The position numbers and the translations under genes were made by a program. From contig JAJFMK010000154.1 of assembly GCA_021772215.1 (NCBI GenBank), positions 1-40,267 of the forward strand: a DNA stretch of 40,267 bases. Direction: 5' to 3'. Source of the DNA: Chlamydiota bacterium (GTDB taxonomy: Bacteria > Chlamydiota > Chlamydiia > Chlamydiales > JAJFMK01). Below the pieces are notes generated by a model, which was not told where the DNA came from, searched no databases, and saw nothing but the letters and a program-made list of their open reading frames with translations. Below are positions 212 to 40,267 of this stretch, piece after piece. Every line of letters begins with the position of its first letter. Position 1 is the first letter of the stretch.

Positions 212-3200
212 ATGGTACAGCTACAAATAGGGACCCTTCCCCAAACAAATTGGAAAGGAAACATATTCCAGCAACTTTCACGAGGGTCTGCCCTTATCAC
301 TGCTTTAGTGGGATCGACACTCTGCGGACTAGCAAGGGCTACAGAAACGGCTAACTTAAACGATCGAAACGTGAGGCGAGTGGGGACAGCACCACAGGTC
401 TTAGCAAATGTTCCCACTCAATCTGCATTTCCAAACACCCCTTTTTCTTTGACAATCTTACCAGCAGACTATTTTGCAGATTCTGATTCTGGAGGGTTTA
501 GACTTGACGCTGTTGAGAAAGTTACACAGACATTACCTAGTTGGCTAAATTCTGGCATTGGAGAAATATATTTTTTTGAATCACATAATATACCAGGTAA
601 TATTAACGATGTGGATGTTATAGGCAATTTCGCCTATGTAGCAGATAGCATTTCTGGCTTAGCTATCATCGATGTAAGCAACCCTTACGCCCCCACATTA
701 GCAGGATCATATAACACGCCAGGTGGTTGCCGGGGATTAGATGTCATCGGCAATTTCGTCTATGTCGCTGATGGATCTTATGGTCTCCAAATCATCGACA
801 TAAGTAACCCAAGCGCCCCCACATTAGCAGGATCATATAATACGCCAAGTCATGCCAGAAAAGTGGATGTTATAAGCAATCTCGCCTATGTCGCTGATGA
901 TACTTCTGGTTTGCAAATCATCGATGTGAGTGATCCTAATGCTCCTACCCTAGCCGGTTCATTTGATACACCAGGTAATGCATATGGCGTGCGTGTCATC
1001 AATAATTTTGCCTATGTTGCTGATTACACTCCCGGCTTAGCTATAATCGATGTGAGTAACTCATCTGCCCCCCTCTTAGCAGGTTCATATATTACGCCAG
1101 GTAATGCTAACAATGTGGATGTCGTAGGTAATTTTGCTTATGTAGCTGATGGATCTAATGGTCTCCAAATCATCGATGTAAGCAACCCTTACGCCCCCAC
1201 ATTAGCAGGATCATATAACACGCCAGGAAGTGCCCAAGGAGTGACTGTTGTAGGCGATTTCGCTTATGTAGCTGATAAAACTTTCGGCTTAGCTATCATC
1301 GATGTAAGCAACCCTTACGCCCCCATATTAGCAGGATCATATGATACACCAGGGAGTGCCCAAGGAGTGACTGTTGTAGGCAATTTTGTCTATGTTGGAG
1401 ATGACACTTCCGGGCTGCAAATCTTTGGACAGAGTCTCCTTTTATCAGGAGTACCTAGATCAGGAGGCGTTGGCAATTACGAATTTGAGCTCATCGCAGA
1501 AGACCCCGACCTAAACCGAGCCTCTTCAACCTTCATTCTCCGCATAGAGGGAGCTCCTGTTGCAGCCGGCAGCATCTCAAACAAGTTGATAGATGTAGGG
1601 GCCCCCTTTAGCCACTTCATTGATCAATCCGTTTTTCCAGATCCTAACAGTGACGTTGTCTATTACAATGCAAAAAAAACAGACCAGAGTGATCTCCCTA
1701 CCTGGCTCAGCTTTTCCCCTATTGGAATTTTCTCCGGCACGCCTCAATCTACTGATACCGGCACATACAATATCCAAGTCGAAGCTTTTGATGGGATTGT
1801 CTTGGATCGTGCTAATTCGACCTTCTCGTTGACTGTCGATCACTTTCCACAGGTTACTTCTCCTCTTTTAAGCCATGCAGCAAATATTAATAGCCCCTAC
1901 TCGTTTACTGTGCCTACGCAAACCTTTACTGATCAGGATGTAGGCGATACCTTAACCTACAGCGCAACACTTAACGATGGCAACCCCCTACCTTCTTGGC
2001 TTAGCTTTAATCCCTCAACCAGAGTTTTTTCAGGGACACCAACTGTAAGTGATGCAGGATCGCATTCGGTAAAGGTGAGCGCAACAGACAACGCAGGTGC
2101 AAAAGCATCCAGCTCTTTTAATTTAGTAGCTCAACACTTTCCTGATCTGATCAACCCTCTAGTAGACCAGCTCGCCGACATAGGCTTGCCCTACACTTAT
2201 ACTTTTCCAGGGGGTACATTTATTGACCTCGATGGGGAAAGCCTCAGCTACCGCGCTACAATGAGCGATGGAAGCGCGCTGCCCAATTGGCTCGGATTTT
2301 ATGGAGCTACGCAACAGTTTTTAGGTACACCGCTTGCCTCTAATAACGGACAGATATCAGTTAAAGTCATTGCAGAAGACCCTAGAGGTGGCACTGCTGA
2401 AAGCCAATTCAACTTAACTGTAGAGCACTTTCCAAAAGTAGCAACTGCTCTTTCCAATCAAGTTGTAGACCTAAACAAACCCTACTCCTTCACGGTGCCA
2501 GCTCAGACCTTTACTGATCAGGATGTGGGCGATACTTTAACCTATAGCGCAACACTTACAGATGGTAGTCCCCTACCTTCTTGGCTTAGCTTTAATCCCT
2601 CAACCAGAGTTTTTTCAGGGACACCAACTGTAAGTGATGCAGGATCACTTTCTATAAAGGTGAGCGCAATAGACAACGCAGGCGCGCAAGCGTCCAGCTC
2701 TTTTAACTTGGTGGCAGAAAATTTCCCAAGCTTACAAAATCCCATTCCTAATCAGCTTGTAGCTCTAGGACTCCCCTACCTTTACGCATTTCCAGGCAAC
2801 ACTTTTATCGATATAGAAGGAGATCTTCTCACTTATCGAGCTACTAAGGCTGACGGCAGTTTACTCCCTCCTTGGCTTAGCTTTGTAGGCCCTAAGCTCG
2901 AATTCCAGGGAACTCCACAGCCATCTGATAAGGGAATTGTAGATTTAAAAGTCATGGCAGAAGATCCCAAAGGAGGAACTGCGACAAGCGCCTTTGAACT
3001 TAATGTCGTCGAAGCCCTTTCGCAAGAATTTGCAACCATCGGAGGCTCCTTTGTTTATGGGATCCCAAATGATATGATCAGCTCTCCCTTAGGACCTGTC
3101 ACTCATACGGTGACCCTTGTTGATGGATCTCCCCTTCCTGCCTGGATTACTTATAATCCAATAACTAATGTCTTAACTGGCATTCCTCCAAGCAGCTCTG

Positions 3201-4147
3201 AAGGCGTCTATAACATTTTGGTAACGGCGGATGATGGTGTGCAGGAACCTGCCTTAGGAACACTCTCCTTAACTGTTGGACCCAACGCTCCACCCAAAGT
3301 TGCTAACCCACTATCGAATGAAGTGGCACAAGTGGGACAAACCTTTAGGCTTGTTGTCCCGGACAACACCTTTGCTGACCCAAATGAAGACACACTCTCT
3401 TTAAGTGCTACAAAGGCTAATGGCAGAGCGCTCCCGTCATGGCTTACCTTCAGTGACAGAACATTGACAGGAAAGCCAGGCCCCTCAGACACTGGCCACT
3501 TTAGTGACAAAACGCTCCCCTTACAGGTCTGCGCCACAGATGGCGATCAAGAGGCGTGCAGCGCTTTTGACCTGAGTGTACAGGGAACATCGAATGCTGA
3601 GAGGGCTGTATCCATTTTTGGGCCCGTAGTAGCCTTTGGAGGCCTTGCCTACGGCTGGTTTAACAAGAGAGGCCTCCTTCTTAACCCCTGGAACCGCAAA
3701 AACTACGACAAAGGAACCAGAACTGTCACGATTGGAGTTCCTTTTAATTACCAAATGAAGACACCAAAAAGCAAAATTAAGTTAGTCCAGGCCTACGAAG
3801 GAAAAAAAATGTTTGCCGGGCTTCCTGCTCCAAAGTCTCTGGATAAGCGGGGCTACCTCGAGTGGCTTAAATTTGATAAACCAATGGCTGCTGGTAGCCT
3901 ACTCCCTAGATGGCTAGAGTATGACCATGGCGAGAATCAATTAGTTAGCAGCTTAGGACCTAACCAAAAAGATGCAGGCTGCTACACCATTCGCGTCTAT
4001 GGAAGTGGCGAAGTCATTTTAGAAGAAGTTAGACTAAAGGTTGGTGATCAATCAGAAGATGGGGTCGAGCTAACGACCAGGAGAAAAACAGGAAATGACC
4101 CCTCATCTGGTATGGTTCCCCTACTAGAGGATGAGGATAATGCGTAA
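212..4147 (+). CDS. Giant membrane protein of the LVIVD beta-propeller + He_PIG/CADG (dystroglycan-type cadherin-like Ig) family, paralog 1 (1311 aa)
   Basis: Uninterrupted 1311-codon ORF from ATG. The N-terminal hydrophobic segment GSALITALVGSTLCGLARA ends in AxA, which is signal-peptide-like with a 24-aa n-region. Seven ~43-aa repeats follow the pattern VxGNFAYVADxxxGLQIIDVSNPxxPxLAGSYxTPG (LVIVD-repeat signature). Eight modules carry LPSWLSFNPxTxxFSGTPxxSDxG...V.A.D (He_PIG/CADG signature). There is a conserved Cys pair (VCATDGDQEACSAF) and a TM helix AVSIFGPVVAFGGLAYGWF followed by NKRG. The 160-aa tail ends DPSSGMVPLLEDEDNA. Seven further paralogs lie in the window. Confidence 0.9.
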   Translation: MVQLQIGTLPQTNWKGNIFQQLSRGSALITALVGSTLCGLARATETANLNDRNVRRVGTAPQVLANVPTQSAFPNTPFSLTILPADYFADSDSGGFRLDAVEKVTQTLPSWLNSGIGEIYFFESHNIPGNINDVDVIGNFAYVADSISGLAIIDVSNPYAPTLAGSYNTPGGCRGLDVIGNFVYVADGSYGLQIIDISNPSAPTLAGSYNTPSHARKVDVISNLAYVADDTSGLQIIDVSDPNAPTLAGSFDTPGNAYGVRVINNFAYVADYTPGLAIIDVSNSSAPLLAGSYITPGNANNVDVVGNFAYVADGSNGLQIIDVSNPYAPTLAGSYNTPGSAQGVTVVGDFAYVADKTFGLAIIDVSNPYAPILAGSYDTPGSAQGVTVVGNFVYVGDDTSGLQIFGQSLLLSGVPRSGGVGNYEFELIAEDPDLNRASSTFILRIEGAPVAAGSISNKLIDVGAPFSHFIDQSVFPDPNSDVVYYNAKKTDQSDLPTWLSFSPIGIFSGTPQSTDTGTYNIQVEAFDGIVLDRANSTFSLTVDHFPQVTSPLLSHAANINSPYSFTVPTQTFTDQDVGDTLTYSATLNDGNPLPSWLSFNPSTRVFSGTPTVSDAGSHSVKVSATDNAGAKASSSFNLVAQHFPDLINPLVDQLADIGLPYTYTFPGGTFIDLDGESLSYRATMSDGSALPNWLGFYGATQQFLGTPLASNNGQISVKVIAEDPRGGTAESQFNLTVEHFPKVATALSNQVVDLNKPYSFTVPAQTFTDQDVGDTLTYSATLTDGSPLPSWLSFNPSTRVFSGTPTVSDAGSLSIKVSAIDNAGAQASSSFNLVAENFPSLQNPIPNQLVALGLPYLYAFPGNTFIDIEGDLLTYRATKADGSLLPPWLSFVGPKLEFQGTPQPSDKGIVDLKVMAEDPKGGTATSAFELNVVEALSQEFATIGGSFVYGIPNDMISSPLGPVTHTVTLVDGSPLPAWITYNPITNVLTGIPPSSSEGVYNILVTADDGVQEPALGTLSLTVGPNAPPKVANPLSNEVAQVGQTFRLVVPDNTFADPNEDTLSLSATKANGRALPSWLTFSDRTLTGKPGPSDTGHFSDKTLPLQVCATDGDQEACSAFDLSVQGTSNAERAVSIFGPVVAFGGLAYGWFNKRGLLLNPWNRKNYDKGTRTVTIGVPFNYQMKTPKSKIKLVQAYEGKKMFAGLPAPKSLDKRGYLEWLKFDKPMAAGSLLPRWLEYDHGENQLVSSLGPNQKDAGCYTIRVYGSGEVILEEVRLKVGDQSEDGVELTTRRKTGNDPSSGMVPLLEDEDNA
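605..1433 (+). repeat. Seven tandem ~129-bp coding repeats (LVIVD blades) inside paralog 1
   Basis: Seven in-frame units have period ~43 aa. Some are identical at DNA level: by direct reading, the 59-bp stretch 665-723 is repeated exactly at 1169-1227, and 661-695 recurs at 1291-1325. Confidence 0.85.
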
Positions 4148-39996: not shown

Positions 39997-40267
39997 TTAA
40001 ATTTCTAACATCTCTCCATCGCAAACGTCTCTTCTGCCAAAGCCTACCTGCAGCTCAAATTCCTCTAAAATAGTCCCTCCCTTTCCATAGGCTCGGATGA
40101 GCAGAGTTGTCTGATCTGTAGAGGAGGGGCTACTTACACTAATAAGAGAGTTCTTCGCTTCGTTAAATTGCAGCCAGTAGGGTAATAGGGCTCCCCCTCC
40201 TAATGGAGCGGGCTCTTCGAGAATTTTTACAAACCTATTATTTCGTGCTTTGTTAGGGAGTAAACCA
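39997..40267 (-). CDS. 3' end (last 89 codons + stop) of a further - strand paralog, truncated by the window edge
   Basis: The reverse-strand translation is GLLPNKARNNRFVKILEEPAPLGGGALLPYWLQFNEAKNSLISVSSPSSTDQTTLLIRAYGKGGTILEEFELQVGFGRRDVCDGEMLEI*. It aligns with the C-terminal domain of the other copies (LLPxWLxY...YTIRAYGxGxVILEExxLxV). The stop is at 39997-39999. Confidence 0.8.
   Translation of the reverse strand, partial: GLLPNKARNNRFVKILEEPAPLGGGALLPYWLQFNEAKNSLISVSSPSSTDQTTLLIRAYGKGGTILEEFELQVGFGRRDVCDGEMLEI

What the first reader, a model, noticed from the sequence alone, without database searches (positions are those of the whole stretch)
212..40267. Mirror-image array of at least eight paralogous giant LVIVD-propeller / cadherin-like membrane proteins converging on an effector-type island
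Seen: eight ORFs plus one decayed fragment (11602-11835) share one collinear architecture. The ORFs are 212-4147, 4187-7612 and 7929-11315 on +, and 26798-30007, 30012-33275, 33280-36510, 36659-39982 and the partial 39997->40267 on -. The shared architecture is a signal peptide, a split He_PIG domain with a nested 7-blade LVIVD propeller, 5-7 He_PIG modules, a Cys pair, a TM helix and a He_PIG-like tail. These genes fill roughly 27 of 40 kb and are packed with gaps of 39, 4, 4 and 14 nt. The two arrays are transcribed toward each other onto a ~15-kb island of eukaryote-like genes. The + copies are close relatives and the - copies are far more diverged, so the family is old yet still duplicating. 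Established: LVIVD repeats and He_PIG domains are each known from bacterial and archaeal surface proteins. I know of no characterised system with this combined architecture or array organisation. Inference: this is a lineage-specific envelope or surface receptor/adhesin family, functionally comparable to expanded families such as chlamydial Pmps. It may be involved in host-cell or host-range recognition. The window edge cuts the array, so it is probably larger.
Basis: partly seen in the sequence, partly recalled or inferred. Interest (0 to 1): 0.85.

Follow-up and report, generated by a model that had tools for sequence, protein, structure and literature searches.

The report
Tandem arrays of propeller-on-stalk membrane proteins
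An uncultured, probably host-associated bacterium carries at least eight diverged copies of a very large, uncharacterised membrane protein, built like an animal adhesion receptor with a variable propeller head, an Ig-domain stalk, one membrane anchor and an inner Ig-like tail; the same gene family, often in tandem arrays, turns up in other unstudied bacteria.

Summary
Seven complete ORFs, one edge-cut copy and one pseudogene remnant are collinear paralogues (34-65% aa identity). Every complete copy passes Pfam LVIVD and He_PIG. An AlphaFold model (pLDDT 83) shows a 7-blade propeller. Cutting the propeller out in silico restores a full-length He_PIG match, so the nesting is real. After it come five He_PIG modules (seven in A1), a Cys pair, a weakly hydrophobic Gly/Ala-rich helix with a basic KKRG..NRKxYDKG motif, and a divergent He_PIG-like tail.

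Corrections:
- The family is not lineage-specific. At least 56 clusters at 50% identity carry the same C-terminal cassette.
- Tandem arrays recur in three other contig lineages. B1-B3 have one-to-one counterparts (~59%) on another contig.
- dS is saturated, so "still duplicating" is unsupported.
- The family spans about 24.6 kb, not 27.

The propeller is the most variable part and the membrane-proximal module the most conserved. The same nested unit forms the outer part of type-I receptor Ser/Thr kinases. SecB genes sit beside family members in two contig sets.

Best reading: Sec-exported, N-out/C-in, kinase-less receptor/adhesion-type envelope proteins. Surface exposure and host recognition are untested. 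This is a new variant of a known kind, of moderate interest.

The parts
212..4147 (+). A1, 1311 aa. Family member with two extra He_PIG modules, from an internal duplication (1829-2128 vs 2414-2713, 83% nt).
4187..7612 (+). A2, 1141 aa, family member.
7929..11315 (+). A3, 1128 aa. The family member that was modelled (AlphaFold2, mean pLDDT 83).
8139..8312 (+). A3 He_PIG module 1, N-terminal half (residues 71-128). It ends with the LPxWL strand.
8313..9194 (+). A3 seven-blade LVIVD beta-propeller (residues 129-422), nested inside He_PIG module 1. It is the most variable domain of the family.
9195..9308 (+). A3 He_PIG module 1, C-terminal half (residues 423-460; LsGxP..GNYe..).
9309..10754 (+). 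A3 stalk of five He_PIG modules (residues 461-942). The last carries the conserved C923-x8-C932 pair on adjacent strands and is the most conserved domain (65% mean identity).
10755..10883 (+). A3 Gly/Ala-rich hydrophobic helix with an invariant Pro, followed by the basic juxtamembrane motif GW(F/Y)xKRG..LNPWNRKxYDKG (residues 943-985). This is the diagnostic signature of the family.
10884..11213 (+). A3 tail, a divergent He_PIG-like beta-sandwich (residues 986-1095) predicted to be cytoplasmic. It is followed by a disordered acidic end, ...PSSGMVPLLEDEDNA.
11638..11835 (+). Pseudogene remnant of one He_PIG module, 63% identical to A2 residues 791-849, with in-frame stops.
26798..30007 (-). B1, 1069 aa. 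Its one-to-one counterpart is P0023 (59.6%) on another contig.
30012..33275 (-). B2, 1087 aa (TTG start). Counterpart P0021 (59.4%).
33280..36510 (-). B3, 1076 aa (GTG start). Counterpart P0018 (58.6%).
36659..39982 (-). B4, 1107 aa. The most divergent copy, 34-37% identical to the others.
39997..40267 (-). 3' end of a further copy, cut by the contig end. It encodes the tail domain.
19408..26688 (+). Context gene, possibly linked: a 2426-aa protein with two kinase-like modules (DxKPDN...IDND), ribonuclease-inhibitor (RI)-type LRRs, Sel1 and a C-terminal Tox-ODYAM1 domain. A homologue lies directly downstream of a family array in L003.
13707..17105 (+). Context, no evidence of linkage. Three tightly packed genes: YlqD-like, a classical-type protein tyrosine phosphatase (PTP; HCHDGMVRS motif) and a membrane protein with a C-terminal J domain (HPD motif).

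Best explanation
The window encodes at least eight members of an undescribed family of exported, single-pass (N-out/C-in) envelope proteins. They are built like kinase-less receptors or adhesion molecules.

**Anatomy of one protein**
- An N-terminal hydrophobic export segment, preceded by an extended n-region.
- A 7-blade LVIVD beta-propeller inserted into a loop of the first He_PIG Ig module.
- A stalk of five further He_PIG modules (seven in A1). The last is stabilised by a cross-strand Cys pair.
- A Gly/Ala-rich membrane helix with an invariant Pro and a strongly basic juxtamembrane motif.
- A cytoplasmic He_PIG-derived Ig-like domain.
- A short acidic or disordered end.

**Proposed working**
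- The variable propeller is the ligand-binding head, held about 25-30 nm from the membrane by the stalk. That length is estimated from typical Ig-domain and propeller sizes, not computed here.
- The conserved membrane-proximal module, helix, juxtamembrane motif and tail give a common anchoring and partner-binding platform on the cytoplasmic side.
- Paralogues that have been kept apart since before the divergence from at least one other sampled genome give a repertoire of distinct binding specificities.

**Shown:** domain content, nesting, 7 blades, collinearity, gradient of variability, recurrence of arrays, one-to-one counterparts, and relatives with the same ectodomain unit fused to a cytoplasmic kinase.

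**Inferred:** Sec export, topology, disulfide, ligand binding, and the nature of the ligands (host, envelope or environmental).
For: - Pfam He_PIG and LVIVD are found in all copies.
- The AlphaFold2 model has mean pLDDT 83 and above 94 in the propeller, with 28 strands forming 7 blades.
- Propeller-excised chimeras regain a full-length He_PIG match above the cut-off.
- Mean identity by domain: propeller 36%, membrane-proximal He_PIG 65%, TM plus juxtamembrane 54%. dN is 0.31-0.65 in the propeller against 0.09-0.27 in the membrane-proximal module.
- The positive-inside cluster KKRG..NRKxYDKG follows the helix in all members. The cassette is found at the C-terminus of 90 collected proteins, and every one of the eight checked against Pfam carries He_PIG, seven of them also LVIVD.
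- The receptor kinases P0073, P0029 and P0111 have 2-3 LVIVD propellers in the N-terminal part. In P0073 and P0111 these lie in nested He_PIG units. A TM and a C-terminal Pkinase domain follow, and the kinase must be cytoplasmic. This fixes the N-out/C-in orientation for this kind of ectodomain.
- SecB genes lie directly beside family members in two contig sets whose members are well under 40% identical to each other.
- The Cys pair lies on neighbouring antiparallel strands (916-925 and 930-940) of the last ectodomain module, as expected for an oxidising compartment.
- B1, B2 and B3 each have a closer counterpart on another contig (~59%) than any paralogue in the window (46-49%). The paralogues are therefore old and individually maintained.
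- All copies are intact, with apparent dN/dS of 0.1-0.3.
Against: - The membrane helix is marginal. The Kyte-Doolittle mean is 0.8-2.0, and a crude sum of the Hessa biological hydrophobicity scale (position-independent) is positive, median about +5 kcal/mol. It might not stop transfer.
- He_PIG-type domains are normally extracytoplasmic, so a cytoplasmic one is unusual.
- No signal-peptide or topology predictor was available. The N-terminal segment could be an uncleaved anchor.
- In a diderm, an inner-membrane-anchored ectodomain is periplasmic, which fits poorly with direct recognition of host cells.
- No ligand, partner or expression data exist.
- The taxonomic origin of the contig is not established. 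The only named relative is MAG OFTM82, labelled Alphaproteobacteria.
Confidence: 0.55

Rival explanations
1. The proteins are host-directed mimics of eukaryotic type-I membrane receptors (dystroglycan/sarcoglycan-like). They would be exported from the bacterium and end up in a host or vacuolar membrane, with the tail exposed to host cytosol.
For: - The hydrophobic helix is marginal, as reported (from my own knowledge) for membrane proteins that must escape the bacterial inner membrane.
- The only PDB sequence matches are to the dystroglycan Ig domain, and there are Sarcoglycan_2 hits. The tail model is closest to dystroglycan domains.
- Distant members carry Ser/Pro/Glu-rich disordered tails of 75-130 aa, which is typical of eukaryotic receptor tails.
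- The neighbouring genes are eukaryote-like: a classical PTP, RI-type LRRs with E 2.5e-43 to ribonuclease inhibitor, and Tox-ODYAM1.
- One member lies near a T3SS gene in a chlamydia-like context.
Against: - An N-terminal export segment and adjacent SecB genes point to the Sec route and envelope residence.
- No secretion-system genes lie in the window.
- The strongly basic stop-transfer-like motif is invariant.
- The kinase-fused relatives look like ordinary bacterial receptor kinases.
- He_PIG is abundant in free-living bacteria, so similarity to dystroglycan is at domain level only.
Confidence: 0.13
2. The proteins are structural, periplasm-spanning struts or envelope-organising proteins. 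They would be anchored in the inner membrane and reach the peptidoglycan or outer membrane, with no role in recognising external ligands. The many copies would then reflect dosage or redundancy.
For: - The predicted topology puts the ectodomain in the periplasm of a diderm.
- The stalk length (six Ig modules plus a propeller) is of the order of the periplasmic width. This is an inference from domain sizes.
- The membrane-proximal region is conserved.
- The family occurs in many environmental contigs, not only in host-associated contexts.
Against: - Structural proteins are not expected to keep eight or more paralogues at 34-65% identity, with the head evolving fastest and one-to-one counterparts preserved.
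- The same unit is used as the sensor part of receptor kinases.
Confidence: 0.15
3. The tandem copies are an assembly artefact or a graveyard of pseudogenes.
For: Short-read MAG assemblies often mis-assemble repeats. Related contigs are short, some holding a single gene, e.g. L001 at 3,956 nt. One decayed fragment exists.
Against: - The copies differ by 27-40% at DNA level and share no long identical tracts.
- All seven are intact ORFs of more than 1,000 codons with apparent dN/dS of 0.1-0.3.
- Independent assemblies show similar arrays.
Confidence: 0.01

Closest known systems
Uncharacterised type-I receptor Ser/Thr kinases with LVIVD/He_PIG ectodomains (P0073 'Coxiella sp. DG_40' KPJ67907.1; P0029 'Chlamydiae bacterium PknH'; P0111)
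   Same: P0073 and P0111 share the He_PIG-split-by-LVIVD-propeller unit (39-41% identity to A3 residues 80-530), and P0029 shares the propeller (about 50% identity). All have the same order: ectodomain, single TM, cytoplasmic part.
   Different: They have 2-3 propellers and a C-terminal Pkinase domain. The window proteins have one nested unit, a long He_PIG stalk, the KKRG..NRKxYDKG motif and a non-enzymatic Ig-like tail. The kinases are themselves unstudied.
Integrin alpha subunits (and, more loosely, plexin/semaphorin/MET receptors)
   Same: The design is the same: a 7-blade beta-propeller head, an Ig-like stalk, a single Gly-rich TM helix, and a conserved basic juxtamembrane motif (GFFKR in integrins, from my own knowledge, against GW(Y/F)KKRG here).
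   Different: There are no FG-GAP repeats and no sequence relationship. Here the propeller is nested inside an Ig module, the tail is a folded Ig-like domain, and no beta-subunit partner is known. This is an analogy of design, not membership.
Dystroglycan / alpha- and epsilon-sarcoglycan (CADG/He_PIG-type Ig domains in type-I membrane proteins)
   Same: There is domain-level homology. The PDB sequence hits are to the dystroglycan Ig domain (E 2e-6 to 5e-4). Sarcoglycan_2 hits occur. The tail model is closest to dystroglycan domains. Both are type-I membrane proteins.
   Different: Those proteins have no propeller. The window proteins have no mucin or SEA-like module and many more Ig modules.
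   Same: Both are expanded, diverged paralogue families encoded in clusters in a probably host-associated bacterium.
   Different: Pmps are type V autotransporters with GGA(I,L,V)/FxxN repeats and a C-terminal beta-barrel (my own knowledge). No such domains are found here, and the anchoring and export are different.
He_PIG-containing fibrillar/RTX adhesins (e.g. the LapA-like BrtA with 'dystroglycan-type cadherin-like' repeats, PMC4933386) and NCBIfam 'choice-of-anchor B' LVIVD proteins (TIGR04312)
   Same: Both use He_PIG modules as a stalk, or an LVIVD propeller as an extracytoplasmic module.
   Different: There are no RTX or T1SS features. TIGR04312 scores 41.7 bits against a cut-off of 100. 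Those proteins lack the TM/juxtamembrane/tail cassette.

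Membership tests
Pfam He_PIG (PF05345) | HMM score above the gathering cut-off (24 bits) | tested here: met
   216-362 bits with 5-7 stretches in all seven copies.
Pfam LVIVD (PF08309) beta-propeller proteins | Tandem LVIVD repeats above the cut-off (20.2 bits) that form a closed propeller | tested here: met
   96-282 bits. The AlphaFold2 model has 28 strands forming 7 four-stranded blades with pLDDT above 94.
The family defined here (nested propeller, He_PIG stalk, TM/KKRG..NRKxYDKG, He_PIG-like tail) | C-terminal cassette matched end to end by the tail profile, together with LVIVD and He_PIG | tested here: met
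   All window copies and 90 collected proteins carry the TM/juxtamembrane part, 71 of them the full tail. All eight proteins checked carry He_PIG, and seven also LVIVD.
NCBIfam choice-of-anchor B (TIGR04312) | Score of at least 100 bits | tested here: not met
   41.7 and 34.7 bits.
Integrin alpha | FG-GAP repeats in the propeller | tested here: not met
   No FG-GAP (PF01839) hit at E<=0.01 in any copy. Only the overall design is shared.
Chlamydial Pmp / type V autotransporters | Pmp repeats and a C-terminal autotransporter beta-barrel | tested here: not met
   No Chlam_PMP or Autotransporter Pfam hits. The C-terminus is a helix plus an Ig-like domain.
RTX/T1SS fibrillar adhesins | RTX nonapeptide repeats and a C-terminal T1SS signal, with no N-terminal signal | tested here: not met
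   No HemolysinCabind hit. An N-terminal hydrophobic export segment is present.
Bacterial type-I receptor Ser/Thr kinases with an LVIVD/He_PIG ectodomain | Cytoplasmic Pkinase domain after the TM | tested here: not met
   No Pkinase hit in the window copies. It is present in P0073, P0029 and P0111.
Type-I (N-out/C-in) bitopic membrane protein | Cleavable signal peptide, plus one stop-transfer TM with positive charges on the cytoplasmic side | tested here: inconclusive
   Hydrophobic N-terminal segment with A-x-A-like sites after a 15-40-aa extension. The C-terminal helix is marginal (KD 0.8-2.0) but is followed by 5 or more basic residues. No SignalP or DeepTMHMM was available.
Dystroglycan/sarcoglycan | CADG-type Ig domain together with mucin/SEA-like modules | tested here: not met
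   Only the Ig domain is shared. No other dystroglycan module was detected.

The most novel reading that the evidence does not exclude
These are bacterial, integrin- or dystroglycan-like transmembrane coupling receptors. Each paralogue's propeller would bind a different external ligand, host-derived or envelope-derived. The conserved juxtamembrane motif and cytoplasmic Ig-like domain would relay this to a separate signalling protein. The candidate partner is the neighbouring giant protein with kinase-like modules and RI-type LRRs, whose homologue also follows an array in a distant genome. Relatives have the kinase fused directly, a 'Rosetta-stone' pattern. In the boldest version, the proteins operate in the host-facing membrane of a protist symbiont as mimics of eukaryotic adhesion receptors.
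Probability: 0.12. Interest if true: 0.85.

Novelty: new variant of a known kind. Interest (0 to 1): 0.55.

Why it matters
If the reading is right, this family would be a prokaryotic counterpart of the eukaryotic [quoted passage not shown] receptor design. It would have a built-in natural experiment: many old paralogues with diversified heads and a constant membrane-proximal and cytoplasmic part, plus relatives in which the same ectodomain is wired to a Ser/Thr kinase.

It would give symbiosis and envelope biologists three things:
- a defined candidate family for recognition or signalling in uncultured, probably protist-associated bacteria;
- a sequence signature (GW(Y/F)KKRG..LNPWNRKxYDKG plus a He_PIG-like tail) for finding it;
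- a clear example of a beta-propeller nested inside an Ig-like domain.

If the proteins turn out to be ordinary periplasmic scaffolds, the value is limited to annotating a large uncharacterised family.

Tried and rejected
- **Contigs of the closest NCBI relatives.** The window's own record, P0012 and P0014 are not on record in the look-up of encoding contigs. Synteny of the 22.5-kb contig could therefore not be read and rests on contig lengths.
- **Genome scan.** It returned a single relative, OFTM82. The window itself is not in that collection.
- **Metagenome scans.** The scan with the tail alignment found nothing.
- **Word-indexed search with the tail.** It returned only four proteins and was replaced by the exhaustive profile search.
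- **Foldseek of the full-length model.** It gave only generic Ig-chain matches with TM-scores of 0.14 or less.
- **Tail profile against PDB sequences.** No hit.
- **Promoter and terminator scans.** Promoter-like sites were at chance level in 1-20000 and above the shuffles in 20001-40000, where several lie in the tandem LRR-repeat DNA. Terminator-like sites were above chance in 1-20000. No hit fell at an array boundary, so the scans gave no usable operon signal.
- **Rfam and tRNA scans.** Empty.
- **Plasmid collection.** Only generic He_PIG stalk matches, none covering the TM/tail.
- **dN/dS.** Not interpretable, because dS is saturated.
- **Phase variation.** Slipped-strand tracts were looked for and not found.
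- **Kinase-like modules of the giant LRR protein.** The idea that they are true kinases could not be confirmed. There was no PDB sequence hit even with a 9-sequence profile.
- **PTP linkage.** A PTP also lies near a family member in L010, but it is only 24% identical to the window's PTP, so this was rejected as evidence of linkage.
- **Taxonomy via the island.** The search with the kinase-like module gave only unnamed hits plus one 'Bdellovibrionales' MAG fragment.

Full report

Yes. The ORF table reproduces every coordinate. There are three ORFs on the + strand (212-4147, 4187-7612, 7929-11315; called A1-A3 here) and four on the - strand (26798-30007, 30012-33275, 33280-36510, 36659-39982; B1-B4), of 1069-1311 codons. 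All seven pass Pfam He_PIG (216-362 bits, 5-7 stretches) and LVIVD (96-282 bits, 4-7 stretches) far above the curated cut-offs.

They are collinear paralogues. Identity is 54-65% among A copies, 34-49% among B copies and 34-48% between the sets, over about 1,000 aligned residues.

The sequence at the right edge (39997-40267, - strand) translates into the family's C-terminal domain. It is therefore the 3' end of a further copy.

The decayed fragment is also real. tblastn places it at 11638-11835, 63% identical to A2 residues 791-849 (E 1.5e-14). Its translation carries in-frame stops.

At DNA level the copies are 60-73% identical and share no long near-identical tracts, so assembly duplication is excluded.

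Small corrections:
- The family covers about 24.6 kb, not 27 kb.
- The window is the whole contig, since the longest contig for its proteins is 40,267 nt.

**2. Anatomy**

An AlphaFold2 model of A3, built on a 38-sequence family alignment, has mean pLDDT 83 and above 94 in the propeller. Between residues 125 and 425 there are 28 strands, which make seven four-stranded blades with a period of about 42 residues.

The propeller is flanked by two half Ig domains (about 75-125 and 425-460). I tested the nesting directly. Excising the propeller from A3 and B1 in silico gives 97-99-residue chimeras that match He_PIG over profile positions 9-95 of 96 at 31-32 bits (cut-off 24). The N-terminal half alone scores 17.8 bits and the C-terminal half scores nothing. 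The split He_PIG with a nested 7-blade propeller is therefore established.

Five more He_PIG modules follow. A1 has seven, because of a 585-nt internal tandem duplication whose copies are 83% identical.

The last ectodomain module carries an invariant C-x8-C pair. The two Cys lie on adjacent antiparallel strands (916-925 and 930-940) and can form a disulfide. This is an inference from the DSSP assignment of the model.

Next comes a Gly/Ala/Ser-rich hydrophobic stretch of about 18 residues with an invariant Pro. It ends in GW(Y/F) and is followed by KKRG..LNPWNRKxYDKG. Its hydrophobicity is marginal, with a Kyte-Doolittle mean of 0.8-2.0.

The last 110-150 residues fold as a beta-sandwich (pLDDT 75-92). 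Pfam does not recognise this tail.
- hhalign relates it to the protein's own ectodomain He_PIG modules (P 71-91%, E 1e-6 to 4e-5; control between ectodomain modules 99%).
- A profile of the tail picks up He_PIG repeats in giant proteins.
- Its model is closest in the PDB to dystroglycan Ig-type domains (8uf4, 1u2c, 9c3c; E about 2e-5).

The N-terminal hydrophobic segment follows a 15-40-residue extension. The annotated starts have SD-like motifs in four of the seven copies (A1, B1, B2, B3), so the extension is probably translated at least in those. Cleavage could not be tested.

**3. Pattern of variation**

By domain, the propeller is the most variable part (mean identity 36%, and 30% among B copies). 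The membrane-proximal He_PIG with the Cys pair is the most conserved (65%). dN is 0.31-0.65 in the propeller against 0.09-0.27 in that module.

dS is saturated everywhere (0.7 to >2, or incalculable). Formal dN/dS is therefore unreliable, and no recent whole-gene duplication is visible.

Two observations suggest some 3' gene conversion. The last 65 nt of the A copies are 89-95% identical, and the A1-A2 tail has the lowest dS (0.70).

There are no homopolymer or simple-sequence-repeat tracts of the kind that drive phase variation.

**4. Relatives elsewhere**

The family is not lineage-specific. An exhaustive profile search with the TM/juxtamembrane/tail cassette against 1.84 billion representatives gave 840 hits at E<=1e-3. 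Many of these are generic He_PIG repeats. By my count, at least 56 of the top 150 carry the whole cassette at their C-terminus. Across all proteins collected, 90 have the TM/juxtamembrane part and 71 have the full tail. Of the eight I checked against Pfam, all carry He_PIG and seven also LVIVD.

Tandem arrays recur:
- three copies in L003/L008;
- at least four copies in L007;
- three copies plus a fragmented fourth in L009.

Within the closest set, B1, B2 and B3 each have a best counterpart at about 59% identity (P0023, P0021, P0018). Each is closer than any paralogue in the window (46-49%). All three counterparts come from a contig of 22,515 nt, which also holds two A-like copies (P0012, P0016). 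The paralogues therefore pre-date the split between the genomes carrying these two contigs and are individually maintained. That contig has no room for a 15-kb island. This is an inference from lengths, because the contig could not be fetched.

The only named close relative is a 3,956-nt contig of MAG OFTM82, labelled 'Alphaproteobacteria bacterium'. The OFTM MAGs come from Oslofjord subsea-tunnel biofilms (PMC10732223).

A single-copy member (L010) lies in a context that looks chlamydial to me: an SctQ gene followed by a Pkinase gene, as in the Chlamydia cdsQ-pkn5 pair (my own knowledge). L005 carries PLA1 and both L005 and L009 carry SecB, which are typical of Proteobacteria.

**5. Evidence on mechanism**

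Two findings bear on topology and export.

First, three uncharacterised receptor kinases (P0073, P0029, P0111) have 2-3 LVIVD propellers in the N-terminal part. In P0073 and P0111 these sit in the same He_PIG-split-by-propeller unit (39-41% identical to A3 residues 80-530), and P0029 matches the propeller at about 50%. A clear TM helix and a C-terminal Pkinase domain follow. The kinase must be cytoplasmic, so this ectodomain type works on the outer side of the cytoplasmic membrane in an N-out/C-in protein. That is the orientation implied here by the basic cluster after the helix.

Second, a SecB gene lies immediately next to family members in two contig sets (L005/L006 and L009). The two SecB proteins are 32% identical. 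This points to Sec-dependent export of these very long pre-proteins.

Together with the head-variable, base-conserved gradient, the best reading is a repertoire of exported, membrane-anchored, kinase-less receptor/adhesion-type proteins. The conserved juxtamembrane motif and Ig-like tail would engage a common cytoplasmic partner.

What remains open is whether the head is ever surface-exposed.

The marginal helix, the cytoplasmic Ig-like domain and the Ser/Pro/Glu-rich disordered ends of distant members keep alive a rival reading, in which the proteins act in a host membrane.

**6. The island**

The 15.5 kb between the arrays encodes:
- a YlqD-like protein;
- a classical-type PTP with an HCHDGMVRS active-site motif, whose nearest PDB relatives are PTP1B and receptor-type PTPs;
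- a membrane protein with a C-terminal J domain;
- two ORFs with no family match;
- a 2426-aa protein with RI-type LRRs (E 2.5e-43 to ribonuclease inhibitor), Sel1 and Tox-ODYAM1.

"Effector-type, eukaryote-like" is a fair description, but delivery to a host is untested.

One link may be more than chance. In L003, a distant genome whose array proteins are about 36% identical to A3, the array is followed on the same strand by a 2263-aa homologue of the giant LRR protein (BLASTP E 4e-41 over 863 residues, covering a kinase-like module and the LRRs). Other arrays (L007, L009) lack such a neighbour within the 10 kb of flank read, so this is a lead, not a finding.

**7. Comparison with known systems and novelty**

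No paper in the held library describes a combined LVIVD and He_PIG protein or its function. Membership tests:
- The proteins are members of the He_PIG and LVIVD domain families.
- They fail the tests for choice-of-anchor B (41.7 bits against 100).
- They have no FG-GAP repeats (integrin alpha), no Pmp or autotransporter domains, no RTX features and no kinase domain.

In design they resemble integrin alpha chains: a 7-blade head, an Ig stalk, a Gly-rich TM and a basic juxtamembrane motif. They share Ig-domain homology with dystroglycan and sarcoglycan.

I rate this a new variant of a known kind: an undescribed architecture and family built from known modules. Interest is moderate, because the function is inferred only.

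Noticed in passing
window 19408-26688 (+); L003 15500-22291: The giant 2426-aa protein has two internal modules with a protein-kinase-like catalytic-loop pattern (..DNKPDNFMV..IDNDMVF.. and ..DGKPDNYIV..IDNDHAF..). P-E-D-x-K...Y...D-N is invariant in a 9-sequence alignment. Neither Pfam nor PDB sequence searches recognise the modules. A homologue follows a family array in a distant genome.
   Followed up: partly
window 23405-24712: Thirteen head-to-tail 84-nt (28-aa) RI-type LRR units are 66-88% identical at DNA level. This indicates relatively recent repeat expansion inside the giant LRR gene.
   Followed up: no
window 11384-11573: A perfect 19-nt inverted repeat (CTAGGAGGGACTTGCAAAA at 11384-11402 and 11555-11573; 0.02 matches expected by chance) bounds a roughly 190-nt MITE-like or hairpin element. 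It lies between the A3 stop codon and the He_PIG pseudogene remnant.
   Followed up: partly
L005 9154-9687; L006 6005-6538; L009 9376-9876: SecB chaperone genes lie directly next to, or inside, arrays of family members in two contig sets. In L005 a 1978-aa FG-GAP/Cadherin_3 protein sits on the other side of SecB.
   Followed up: partly
window 4082-4146, 7547-7611, 11250-11314: The last 65 nt of A1-A3 are 89-95% identical, against about 70% for the rest of the genes. They encode ...DPSSGMVPLLEDEDNA. A short '(V/A/S)PLL(E/D/Q)' motif near the C-terminus is also seen in B1 (as SPLIE), B2, P0124 and P0126. Its function is unknown. It could reflect gene conversion or a short linear motif.
   Followed up: partly
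window 13707-17105: Three tightly packed genes look like an operon: YlqD-like, a classical-type PTP (HCHDGMVRS) and a multi-hydrophobic-segment protein ending in a J domain with HPD. There is a 1-nt gap at 14180/14182 and a 4-nt overlap at 15321-15324.
   Followed up: no
L009 15146-18768 and 20105-22879: A fourth family copy in this array is broken into four ORFs (761, 141, 86 and 203 aa). It is followed by group II intron-type reverse transcriptase genes and IS transposase genes, so arrays decay and attract mobile elements.
   Followed up: no
P0194 (2824 aa), residues 2346-2824: One distant member has three additional tail-type Ig-like modules after the first tail, on the predicted cytoplasmic side, and then a Ser-rich disordered end. 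Several other members have 75-130-aa Ser/Pro/Glu-rich disordered C-termini.
   Followed up: partly
L010 14761-15705 and 18284-21288: A single-copy family member in a chlamydia-like context lies 1 kb from a Y_phosphatase gene (only 24% identical to the window's PTP) and 4.5 kb from an SctQ-Pkinase gene pair.
   Followed up: partly
N-termini of P0104, P0074, P0116, P0042, P0041 and the kinase P0073: These proteins share a Thr-rich N-terminal hydrophobic segment (..KAxxxFxxTTAxxLLAxTTG..) after 15-30 residues. It has no obvious A-x-A site, so it may be an uncleaved signal anchor common to the kinase-fused and kinase-less relatives.
   Followed up: no
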